Shown here: in pieces, positions 8,353 to 8,870 of the stretch | How the letters are laid out: each line of letters begins with the position of its first letter | How positions within the stretch are numbered: position 1 is the stretch's first letter | From: a virus | Lineage: Duplodnaviria; Heunggongvirae; Uroviricota; Caudoviricetes | Virus record (IMG/VR): IMGVR_UViG_2529292882_000006 | Span: 1 to 29,442 of that record | Direction: 5' to 3' (one strand) | DNA: 29,442 bases | The notes under the pieces: generated by a model | What the model was told of the DNA's origin: nothing | The model's input: only the letters and a program-made list of their open reading frames with translations | The model's database searches: none | Position numbers and translations under genes: made by a program

Positions 8353-8523
8353 TCGCCCATAAGAGCGGAATATTTTGCTGAAAAATGAAGGGTGCGCCAG
8401 CGTCCGGAAAGCATGAAATTCTGTGTTTGTAGCTACTCAATAAAATAAATTCTTTCTGTCGCCGCGAATACTCAAATGTTGATCAGTGCCCGGTGCGGCG
8501 ATGGGCTTCGATATCAGGAGACG

Positions 8524-8823
8524 ATGATGGAAAAAACAGAAAACAAACCGATTGTAATTGGTGCTGATGCTGCTCCGTTTATGTTTGAGTTGTCTCAACT
8601 GGTGGAGATGCGCATCAGTGATGAATGGGGTGAGGTTAAAGCCCGCGCGCAGTATGCGGATGGCGAAAACCAGTACTTGATCCACTACAAAGCAGCTGAT
8701 GGTCGCGCCACGACGGAGTGGTTTGGTGAGTCAATGCTGGAAGCAACAGAAGATGATCGTCATCCTGGTTGTCCGGTATTTGCTGGTATGGAATTACCGG
8801 AAGGTGCGGTAGTTACTGAGTAA
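8524..8823 (+). CDS. Acidic hypothetical protein (99 aa)
   Basis: AGGAG 5 nt upstream of ATG 8524. About 20 Asp/Glu against about 8 basic residues. No signal peptide or TM segment. Followed by a hairpin. Confidence 0.45.
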   Translation: MMEKTENKPIVIGADAAPFMFELSQLVEMRISDEWGEVKARAQYADGENQYLIHYKAADGRATTEWFGESMLEATEDDRHPGCPVFAGMELPEGAVVTE

Positions 8824-8834
8824 CAGGCATTACA

Positions 8835-8870
8835 GCAGCCCTTCAGTGTGAGGGGCTGCGATAATGTTTT
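8835..8870 (+). terminator. Weak terminator-like hairpin
   Basis: Stem GCAGCCC (8835-8841) / GGGCTGC (8853-8859) with an 11-nt loop, followed by a T-rich tract (TGTTTTTGGTTTTTGG). Confidence 0.3.

What the first reader, a model, noticed from the sequence alone, without database searches (positions are those of the whole stretch)
8400..8870. Acidic 99-aa orphan protein in its own transcription unit
A standalone gene with a good SD, no membrane features and a strongly acidic composition (about 20 D/E against about 8 basic residues), followed by a hairpin. It lies in the same moron-rich stretch between lysis and packaging genes. Small acidic cytoplasmic phage proteins are a recurring form of DNA-mimic or anti-defence factor (Ocr/ArdA-like logic). 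No family was recognised by eye.
Basis: inference. Interest (0 to 1): 0.45.

Follow-up and report, generated by a model that had tools for sequence, protein, structure and literature searches.

The report
Phage HspQ-like small barrel protein
The acidic 99-codon ORF is a real, widely conserved accessory gene of temperate phages that folds as a small SH3-like barrel most like the bacterial protease regulator HspQ. It is therefore not an orphan, and a DNA mimic is unlikely, although its actual function is untested.

Summary
The ORF exists as described. It spans 8524-8823 (+), and the likelier start is ATG 8527, giving 98 aa. It has 20 D/E against 8 K/R, a pI of 4.4, an AGGAG Shine-Dalgarno sequence, and a strong hairpin directly after the stop.

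It is not an orphan. It is phiP27 L33 (PHROG 1935), present in 236 of 5426 complete E. coli genomes, and 751 clusters at 50% identity match its profile. Loci from Alpha-, Beta- and Gammaproteobacteria lie mostly among phage genes. dN/dS is about 0.1-0.2.

In E. coli prophages it travels as a ~700-bp cassette: a small lipoprotein, L33 and the hairpin. The cassette sits between the lysis and packaging genes. I found no convincing promoter of its own. The hairpin has a T-run here but in only 5 of 54 hairpin-bearing loci.

My best reading, at low confidence, is a tail-less HspQ-like host-protein binder that modulates Lon or ClpS. The Ocr/ArdA reading is not supported.

The parts
8527..8823 (+). 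Coding sequence of the L33-family protein. It is 98 aa from ATG 8527, or 99 aa from the alternative ATG 8524, and the coordinates include the TAA stop. Residues ~19-75 form the conserved SH3-like barrel. Residues 76-99 are an acidic C-terminal extension with HPGCP and LPEG motifs.
   Evidence: ORF and translation. PHROG 1935, E 8.5e-60. Homologues. dN/dS 0.09-0.27. AF2 model pLDDT 85.6 with strands at 25-29, 35-42, 50-56, 62-68, 72-74 and 80-84. HspQ is the top structural match.
8516..8520 (+). Shine-Dalgarno sequence AGGAG, 6 nt upstream of ATG 8527 and 3 nt upstream of ATG 8524.
   Evidence: Read directly from the sequence. RefSeq annotates the 98-aa form in a relative.
8826..8868 (+). Hairpin immediately after the stop codon. 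The inner stem is 8835-8845/8849-8859 and the outer stem is 8826-8832/8862-8868. In this window it is followed by a T-rich run (8867-8879), so here it looks like an intrinsic terminator. It also marks the 3' edge of the conserved cassette.
   Evidence: Terminator scan. Fold -32.1 kcal/mol, z = -3.7. Homology to relatives ends at 8866. The hairpin is kept in at least 54 loci with varying loops, but only 5 have a T-run.
8353..8523 (+). Upstream intergenic region (47% GC) that travels with the gene. It holds only weak promoter-like matches, for example TAAAAT near 8441 with a poor -35.
   Evidence: Composition. No consensus promoter on the + strand. Matrix scores are not exceptional. In one relative, homology stops at ~8382, just past the lipoprotein stop.
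8197..8352 (+). Co-travelling upstream gene for a 51-aa lipoprotein (lipobox LVGC). It is phiP27 L32 and PHROG 7528, function unknown. It forms the left half of the ~700-bp cassette that carries the L33 gene in E. coli prophages.
   Evidence: ORF. PHROG 7528, E 6e-29. phiP27 and RefSeq annotation. The left border of the cassette lies at 8160-8179 in 58 of 80 viral contigs.

Best explanation
The gene encodes a small, soluble, acidic SH3-like beta-barrel protein of a widespread accessory family of temperate phages (phiP27 L33, PHROG 1935). The family is a distant relative of the bacterial YccV/HspQ domain. It is carried in late operons at the junction of the lysis and packaging modules. It is therefore probably made during lytic growth, and possibly also from the prophage.

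The most likely mechanism is that the barrel acts as a protein-protein docking module on the host's regulated-proteolysis machinery, namely the Lon N-domain or the ClpS adaptor, which are the known partners of HspQ. The protein lacks HspQ's C-terminal Lon-binding tail with its acetylatable Lys96. It would therefore behave as a stable, tail-less HspQ mimic that re-tunes or blocks proteolysis, rather than as a Lon substrate and activator.

Shown here: the gene is real and conserved, it is phage-associated, it moves as a cassette, the predicted fold is an SH3-like barrel, and HspQ is the nearest solved structure. Inferred: homology to the YccV/HspQ family (about 0.6). Speculative: the protease-modulating mechanism (about 0.2-0.25).
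For: The gene is real: dN/dS is 0.09-0.27 and the ORF is intact in 78 of 80 related viral contigs.

The family is large: PHROG 1935, 108 clusters at 90% identity, and 751 clusters at 50% identity with a ~58-aa core. E34 and G36 are invariant, and F19, L23, V27, S32, R41, Y51, Y55 and W66 are at least 90% conserved.

Phage association and late-operon placement are seen in E. coli, Salmonella, Enterobacter, Yersinia and Edwardsiella, in isolated phages, and in distant Proteobacteria.

Profile-profile comparison of the family with an HspQ alignment gives Prob 80% and E 1.4e-5. It aligns residues 19-85 to HspQ 4-86, with one 15-residue insertion in HspQ and a shared E..L....D(D/E)HP motif. The score is 32.9, against 10.3 +/- 2.2 (maximum 17.7) for 150 column shuffles. 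HspQ itself is acidic (pI 4.5, net charge -10).

From the literature:
- HspQ is a Lon substrate and activator and binds ClpS directly, whatever the state of K96 (PMC6719616).
- YccV-like domains recur in modulators of AAA+ proteases: PDIP38 docks to CLPX, and ClpF is believed to modulate ClpS1 (PMC7647994).
- Phages are known to target Lon, for example T4 PinA (PMC8835725).
Against: The curated Pfam YccV-like model (PF08755) matches neither this protein nor any of 78 family members at E<=1. HMM-versus-sequence searches of the PDB do not retrieve HspQ.

The profile-profile signal depends on alignment depth. It is 6.7% with close homologues only, 52% with distant ones only, and 80% with all. The HspQ alignment I used has low diversity (Neff 1.9).

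The one HspQ feature known to be needed for Lon activation, the C-terminal tail, is absent. No interaction was tested or could be modelled here. No rationale for manipulating Lon or ClpS late in infection has been established.
Confidence: 0.3

Rival explanations
1. It is a host-protein-binding accessory factor unrelated to proteolysis, for example an anti-defence, superinfection-exclusion or host-takeover protein that uses the barrel to bind some other target. On this reading the resemblance to HspQ reflects only a shared fold.
For: The gene is accessory, with patchy presence: 236 of 5426 E. coli genomes. It moves as a cassette in a hypervariable slot. It is small, soluble and without enzymatic motifs. 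The conserved surface-type residues E34, R41, Y44, Y51, D59 and E69 would fit a binding site.
Against: There is no match to PADLOC defence models and no anti-defence family match. Late-operon placement is unusual for factors that must act at DNA entry. The specific top rank of HspQ in two structure searches, together with the shared sequence motif, argues for more than a generic fold.
Confidence: 0.25
2. It is a DNA mimic or anti-restriction protein in the manner of Ocr or ArdA. The acidic surface would imitate DNA and titrate restriction or other DNA-binding defence enzymes.
For: Net charge is about -12 and pI is 4.4. It is small and cytoplasmic. Most family members are acidic, with a median pI of 4.8.
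Against: The fold is a compact SH3-like barrel. No DNA-mimic protein appears among the structural hits shown or in Pfam. Much of the charge lies in non-conserved tails: the conserved core is only -3, or -2 in distant members, and 10% of members are basic. The gene sits in late operons next to lysis and terminase genes, not in an early or leading region.
Confidence: 0.05
3. It is a nucleic-acid-binding SH3/Tudor/KOW-like protein. It could bind hemimethylated DNA, which is the activity first reported for YccV, or RNA, and act in late gene expression or DNA packaging.
Against: The protein is strongly acidic with few basic residues. It is found next to unrelated terminase types (lambda gpA/DUF1441, P27-type Terminase_4, P2 gpM), so it is not tied to one packaging system. 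In Bcep176 it lies in the early region.
Confidence: 0.1
4. It is an accessory factor for lysis or virion assembly. Examples would be a regulator acting with the spanin or lipoprotein encoded just upstream, or a head-completion helper.
For: The gene directly follows the last lysis gene in Edwardsiella (7 nt after LysC), Enterobacter (overlapping DUF2514), Salmonella (after Rz) and E. coli (after the L32 lipoprotein). It lies between terS and gpL in P2/HP1-like phages.
Against: It is absent from most phages with the same lysis or head modules, and it can be replaced by other cargo. It has no signal peptide or membrane segment. It occurs outside lysis and head regions in Burkholderia phages.
Confidence: 0.1

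Closest known systems
HspQ / YccV (E. coli P0AB20, PDB 5YCQ; Pfam PF08755 YccV-like)
   Different: The window protein is phage-encoded. It lacks the 15-residue insertion in the barrel and lacks the C-terminal tail (with K96) through which HspQ is reported to bind and activate Lon and to be regulated. It is not recognised by the Pfam model. No function has been tested.
phiP27 L33 (P27p33) / PHROG 1935 and 8618
   Same: This is the same protein family. phiP27 L33 is 97% identical in protein sequence and 96.7% identical at the DNA level, and it holds the same position after the lysis genes.
   Different: In phiP27 the gene is followed by an HNH gene, cos and a P27-type terminase. Here it is followed by a K88-type fimbrial gene and a lambda-type terminase. 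The family has no assigned function in any library.
YccV-like domains of eukaryotic and organellar protease adaptors (PDIP38/POLDIP2, ClpF)
   Same: They have an SH3-like YccV barrel used as a docking module on AAA+ protease components (PMC7647994). This is the mode of action proposed here.
   Different: Those proteins are multidomain, with large insertions. They were not retrieved in my searches, and the relationship is inferred only through HspQ.
T4 PinA (phage-encoded Lon inhibitor)
   Same: It is a functional precedent: a small phage protein that binds Lon and may compete with HspQ (PMC8835725).
   Different: No sequence or structural relationship was tested or is claimed. PinA comes from a virulent phage.
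Ocr / ArdA DNA mimics
   Same: They are small, acidic proteins of mobile elements.
   Different: The fold differs, there is no family match, the charge is not the conserved feature, and the gene sits in a late operon.
Lambdoid 'morons' such as bor and lom in lambda (from general knowledge of phage genomics)
   Same: It is a discrete cassette inserted between essential late modules. It is present or absent among close relatives and ends in a hairpin.
   Different: No promoter of its own was found. In most relatives the hairpin lacks the T-run of an intrinsic terminator. In other genera the gene is fused into the operon without spacers.

Membership tests
PHROG 1935 (phiP27 L33-like phage proteins) | Significant full-length match to the family profile | tested here: met
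   E 8.5e-60, residues 2-99 against profile positions 1-98 of 116. The shorter core family PHROG 8618 also matches, at E 3.4e-24.
YccV-like / HspQ (Pfam PF08755) | Match to the curated Pfam HMM at or above its gathering score | tested here: not met
   No Pfam hit at E<=1 for this protein. None for 10 distant members at E<=10. None for any of 78 family members at E<=1.
YccV-like / HspQ (Pfam PF08755) | SH3-like beta-barrel superimposable on HspQ | tested here: met
YccV-like / HspQ (Pfam PF08755) | Detectable sequence-profile homology | tested here: inconclusive
   hhalign gives Prob 80% and E 1.4e-5 with all family members, 52% with distant members only and 6.7% with close members only, always in the same register. 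The score is about 10 sd above column shuffles. The HspQ alignment was shallow.
HspQ as Lon specificity-enhancing factor | C-terminal Lon-binding sequence including Lys96 | tested here: not met
   The alignment ends at HspQ residue 86. The protein then ends in FAGMELPEGAVVTE, which is acidic and bears no resemblance to MDELAQTIRKQLQAPRLRN. The role of the tail is taken from PMC10665427 and PMC6719616.
HspQ as Lon specificity-enhancing factor | Binding to Lon or ClpS and an effect on proteolysis | not testable with these tools
   This needs biochemistry or complex prediction.
DNA-mimic anti-restriction proteins (Ocr, ArdA) | Family match or DNA-mimic fold | tested here: not met
DNA-mimic anti-restriction proteins (Ocr, ArdA) | High negative surface charge conserved across the family | tested here: not met
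   This copy has net charge about -12. The conserved core has a median of -3, or -2 in distant members, and 10% of members have pI > 7.
Moron (autonomous promoter-gene-terminator cassette) | Discrete insertion that is present or absent among related phages | tested here: met
   The conserved block is ~8165-8866 with variable flanks in 80 viral contigs. Related prophages carry alternative cargo in the same slot.
Moron (autonomous promoter-gene-terminator cassette) | Own promoter | tested here: inconclusive
   There is no consensus promoter and only weak matrix hits. Transcript mapping was not possible.
Moron (autonomous promoter-gene-terminator cassette) | Own intrinsic terminator | tested here: inconclusive
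   In this window the hairpin is followed by a T-run. The T-run is present in only 5 of 54 loci that keep the hairpin.

The most novel reading that the evidence does not exclude
Temperate phages of Proteobacteria carry a previously unrecognised, tail-less version of the HspQ/YccV barrel. It docks on the host Lon N-domain or on ClpS without being degraded. It would act like a constitutive 'acetylated HspQ' that stabilises chosen Lon or N-degron substrates, either during late infection or in the lysogen. If so, this would be a new and widespread class of phage-encoded modulators of host regulated proteolysis. Because the gene occurs in phiP27-type Stx prophages, it might also affect Hha/YmoA-controlled virulence regulation.
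Probability: 0.2. Interest if true: 0.7.

Novelty: new variant of a known kind. Interest (0 to 1): 0.4.

Why it matters
L33-family genes are common in prophages of E. coli (including the Stx2e phage phiP27), Salmonella, Yersinia, Enterobacter and beyond, and they have never had a functional lead. Linking them to HspQ/YccV gives a concrete, cheap hypothesis to test: does the protein bind Lon or ClpS, and does it change their substrate turnover? HspQ/YccV is a barrel used by bacteria, plastids and mitochondria to tune AAA+ proteases.

A positive result would add a widespread family to the very short list of phage proteins known to manipulate host proteolysis (T4 PinA, and T7 Gp4.5 from my general knowledge). 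It would bear on prophage-host physiology, toxin-antitoxin activation and virulence regulation. A negative result would leave an ordinary conserved hypothetical phage protein.

Tried and rejected
- Direct family searches (Pfam, NCBIfam, PADLOC) found nothing for this protein.
- Sequence and HMM searches of the PDB gave only chance-level hits: BH3703, IWS1, Hha and superoxide dismutase, all with E > 0.1.
- Foldseek against BFVD viral models returned only uncharacterised small barrels, E >= 8e-3.
- The afdb50 fold library was not available.
- Pfam scans of fusion proteins carrying the domain (P0125, P0165, P0193, P0241 and others) gave no informative partner domain, only one Lcl_C hit just below Pfam's cut-off (34 bits against 34.9). 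PHROG scans of them returned only families of unknown function.
- HspQ itself matches no PHROG.
- Literature searches for P27p33, NP_543085, WP_001542813 and phrog_1935 found nothing relevant. The search for YccV plus phage found no report of a phage YccV-like protein.
- Puri & Karzai 2017 (PMC8054221) is not held, so its findings are cited second-hand.
- The search for related loci with the broad alignment A2 failed for lack of a conserved stretch.
- Opposite-strand ORFs (8437-8685 and 8760-8945) were considered and set aside. The purifying selection is measured in the + frame and all homologues are in that frame.
- Rfam found no RNA family in the region.
- I considered and rejected the idea that the short 98-aa form is a truncated pseudogene of the 130-aa form. 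Other genera all carry the short ending, so the long form looks derived.

Full report
**What is in the sequence.** On the + strand an ORF runs from two adjacent ATG codons (8524 and 8527) to TAA at 8821-8823. AGGAG at 8516-8520 lies 3 nt from ATG 8524 and 6 nt from ATG 8527. The second ATG (98 aa) is therefore the better-spaced start, and RefSeq uses it for a 98%-identical locus. A longer reading from ATG 8476 (115 aa, used in the phiP27 record) adds residues that other genera do not conserve.

Directly after the stop lies a two-tier hairpin. The inner stem is 8835-8859 and the outer stem reaches 8826-8868. The fold energy is -32 kcal/mol and z = -3.7 against shuffles. Here it is followed by TTTTTGGTTTTTGG.

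**It is a real gene.** Codon-level comparison with homologues from phiP27, an E. coli chromosome, a Yersinia phage, Salmonella, Enterobacter, Yersinia and Edwardsiella gives dN/dS of 0.09-0.27 wherever dS is not saturated. Among 80 related viral contigs my motif search located the ORF in 78, and it is open in all 78. The collection contains some truncated or frameshifted copies, but they are small clusters beside clusters of hundreds of intact members.

**It is not an orphan.**
- The protein matches PHROG 1935 (E 8.5e-60) and the shorter PHROG 8618.
- It is phiP27 L33, 97% identical in protein.
- The locus is found in 236 of 5426 complete E. coli genomes.
- There are 108 clusters at 90% identity in Escherichia, Shigella, Salmonella, Enterobacter, Klebsiella, Yersinia and Edwardsiella, all named 'hypothetical'.
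- A profile search of 1.8 billion representatives finds 751 clusters at E<=1e-3. Most are stand-alone proteins of 57-100 aa that share a ~58-residue core corresponding to residues 19-75 here.
- Species-representative genomes with a copy include Gamma-, Beta- and Alphaproteobacteria, plus MAGs labelled Acidobacteriota and Fibrobacteraceae.
- E34 and G36 are invariant. F19, L23, V27, S32, R41, Y51, Y55 and W66 are at least 90% conserved.

**Genomic setting in this window.** The window is a prophage late region. In order it carries:
- DUF968, RusA and the Q antiterminator (3037-3858);
- an N6/N4 DNA methylase (4435-5481);
- tRNA-Thr and tRNA-Gly;
- two holins and a GH108 endolysin (6304-7670), then small membrane or lipoprotein ORFs;
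- the target gene;
- a K88-type fimbrial subunit gene (9248-10057);
- DUF1441 and gpA terminase genes (10383-12997);
- portal, capsid and tail-sheath genes.

All of these are on the + strand, so the target lies inside the Q-dependent late transcription unit.

**Is there a promoter of its own?** I found no convincing one. The consensus scan finds none on the + strand. The best position-matrix candidates in 8353-8523 score no better than about 2.6 sites per kb of this window.

**Setting in other genera.** There the gene is packed into late operons without spacers:
- In Edwardsiella it starts 7 nt after the o-spanin LysC gene and lies before the DUF1441 terminase gene.
- In Enterobacter P2-like prophages it overlaps the end of the DUF2514 spanin gene and lies before gpR.
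- In Salmonella it lies after Rz and before a 112-aa ORF, an HNH gene and a Terminase_4 gene.
- In Yersinia and ESSI2 P2/HP1-like phages it overlaps the end of terS (gpM) and lies before gpL.
- In Burkholderia phages it lies in an early region or near HNH/terS.
- Neighbours of distant proteobacterial copies are dominated by phage genes: terminases, portal, capsid, lysozyme, integrase and Rha.

'Its own transcription unit' is therefore not established, and it cannot be general for the family.

**Cassette structure.** I aligned 80 viral contigs carrying close homologues to window 6000-11500. A sharply bounded conserved block appears at ~8165-8866. The left border falls at 8160-8179 in 58 contigs. 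The right border falls at 8860-8869 in 47 contigs and at ~8815 in 28.

The block holds the 51-aa lipoprotein gene (8197-8352; phiP27 L32, PHROG 7528), the intergenic region, the target gene and the hairpin. Upstream, only about 10 of the 80 contigs align to this window's GH108 endolysin gene, and the annotated relatives I inspected carry an M15 peptidase there instead. Downstream the cargo varies: an HNH gene in phiP27, the K88-like gene here and in one E. coli strain, and other hypothetical genes elsewhere. One related prophage keeps the lipoprotein region and replaces the target with another small gene.

The hairpin is retained right after the stop in at least 54 loci, with conserved stems and variable loops. 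Only 5 of these have a run of four or more T after it. It is therefore a conserved 3' boundary element of the cassette, and it looks like a canonical intrinsic terminator only in a minority of contexts, including this one.

**Two protein forms.** Of the 78 located ORFs, 47 are the 98-aa form found here. Twenty-six are a 130-131-aa form that diverges at codon 97 and adds about 34 residues (…ELQPGEVFVMTDIIDGKPQYSRIEMNSKSARLIRE). All other genera have the short ending, so the short form is probably the original one.

**Fold and nearest relatives.** AlphaFold2 was run on a 38-sequence alignment without templates. It gives pLDDT 85.6. The N-terminus (residues 1-18) is lower-confidence (10-residue block means of 63 and 73) and has no regular secondary structure in the model. 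It is followed by a five- to six-stranded barrel.
- Foldseek against 350,542 chains also ranks 5ycq first: E 6.7e-3 against 8.4e-2 for the next hit.
- I confirmed the HspQ sequence against the PDB and collected HspQ homologues. I then compared a 216-sequence family alignment with a 108-sequence HspQ alignment using hhalign. The result is Prob 80% and E 1.4e-5, with residues 19-85 aligned to HspQ 4-86 and a single 15-residue insertion in HspQ. The N-terminal F-x-(L/I)-x-Q-x-V, G-x-V, Tyr, (D/N)-G and E-x-x-L line up, followed by an acidic stretch and H-P.
- The score of 32.9 compares with 10.3 +/- 2.2 (maximum 17.7) for 150 column-shuffled HspQ alignments, and 9.4 for the reversed alignment.

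The signal is modest and depends on alignment depth: 6.7% with close members only and 52% with distant members only, always in the same register. The curated Pfam YccV-like model hits none of 78 members. HMM-versus-sequence searches of the PDB miss HspQ.

My assessment is as follows. The SH3-like barrel is about 0.9 likely. Genuine distant homology to the YccV/HspQ domain is about 0.6. Membership of PF08755 as currently defined is not met.

**What that suggests about function.** These points come from the literature:
- HspQ is a heat-shock protein that is both a Lon substrate and an allosteric activator of Lon for certain substrates such as YmoA/Hha. When Lys96 is acetylated it is no longer degraded and no longer activates Lon.
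- HspQ binds the ClpS adaptor directly, whatever the state of K96, and then inhibits ClpS-dependent ClpAP proteolysis (PMC6719616).
- YccV-like barrels recur as docking modules of AAA+ protease modulators: PDIP38 on CLPX, and ClpF, which is believed to modulate ClpS1 (PMC7647994).

The phage protein keeps the barrel and the acidic-HP motif but has no counterpart of the HspQ tail. It ends in FAGMELPEGAVVTE. The most economical mechanistic guess is therefore a stable, tail-less HspQ-like binder of Lon's N-domain or of ClpS that blocks or redirects host proteolysis. T4 PinA shows that phages do target Lon, and it may compete with HspQ. This step is inference only, and I give it about 0.2-0.25.

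The 'moron-like accessory gene' part holds. The DNA-mimic or anti-restriction part does not, for four reasons.
- There is no family or fold match to Ocr or ArdA.
- The acidity lies largely in the tails and is weak in the conserved core. The median core charge is -3, or -2 in distant members, and 10% of members are basic.
- The residues that are conserved are aromatic, Gly, Glu and Arg positions.
- The gene's late-operon position is the wrong timing for protecting incoming DNA (inference).

An anti-defence role of another kind is not excluded. PADLOC holds only defence systems and gave nothing.

**Novelty and verdict.** This is a real, conserved, mobile accessory gene of temperate phages with no known function. 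The new element is the structural and profile link to HspQ/YccV, together with the absence of HspQ's regulatory tail. That makes it a new variant of a known kind of domain in a new (phage) setting. It also gives the L33 family its first testable hypothesis. Interest is moderate, at 0.4. The gene is common and the hypothesis is attractive, but the functional inference rests on distant similarity alone.

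Noticed in passing
window 9248-10057 (+): A 269-aa ORF with a signal peptide matches Pfam Fimbrial_K88 (FaeG-like subunit) over its full length, E 6.4e-55. It sits alone between the target gene and the terminase genes, with no usher or chaperone gene in the stretch examined (window 7000-10500). It is preceded by ~380 bp of 40%-GC DNA and followed by a terminator-like hairpin at 10086-10113. It matches no PHROG. DNA homologous to this stretch was seen in only 1 of 80 related viral contigs and in one E. coli chromosome, where it is annotated as hypothetical. An orphan fimbrial subunit as prophage cargo is unusual.
   Followed up: partly
window 8197-8352 (+): A 51-aa lipoprotein (lipobox LVGC, three further Cys in a 30-residue mature part) that is phiP27 L32 and PHROG 7528, function unknown. 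It is the constant left-hand partner of the target gene in E. coli prophages. In some relatives it follows the endolysin gene by 15 nt, which is the position where an o-spanin would be expected.
   Followed up: partly
window 7670-8352: No canonical i-spanin (Rz-like, ~130-150 aa) is visible after the endolysin. There are only small membrane ORFs (7810-8013 PHROG 1115; 7938-8165 PHROG 4906) and the lipoprotein. The Edwardsiella relative with the same holin-holin-GH108 set has DUF2570 plus LysC spanins instead.
   Followed up: no
window 8826-8868 and homologous positions in L048-L127: The hairpin after the gene has conserved stems and variable loops, and it coincides exactly with the point where homology between prophages ends. 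In most relatives it has no T-run. It may therefore serve as a recombination boundary or an RNA-stability element rather than, or as well as, a terminator.
   Followed up: partly
proteins P0003, P0013, P0022, P0031, P0036, P0038; loci among L048-L127: A common long form of the protein (130-159 aa as called) adds a ~34-40-residue C-terminal module (…GE.FV.T.I.DGKP.YSRIE.N…). One version ends in KSARLIRE, which loosely recalls the basic end of HspQ (APRLRN). The other ends in the hydrophobic ICLIPA. I did not analyse this further.
   Followed up: no
proteins P0109, P0113, P0165, P0193, P0197, P0241: The L33 barrel also occurs as tandem duplicates. It also occurs at the N-terminus of larger proteins whose remaining repeats match only PHROGs of unknown function. 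One has a weak Lcl_C domain.
   Followed up: partly
window 5651-5804 (+): tRNA-Thr(TGT) and tRNA-Gly(TCC) lie between the DNA methylase and the holins. This is the slot where phiP27 carries tRNA genes and stx2e.
   Followed up: no
L005 (Yersinia phage vB_YpM_44) 3695-4408: The L33 domain lies inside a 237-aa annotated CDS with N- and C-terminal extensions. The N-terminal part may be an annotation artefact caused by an upstream in-frame start.
   Followed up: no
window 14689-16779 (+): A single 696-aa ORF combines a Clp-protease-like prohead protease domain with a major capsid domain (Phage_capsid_4).
   Followed up: no
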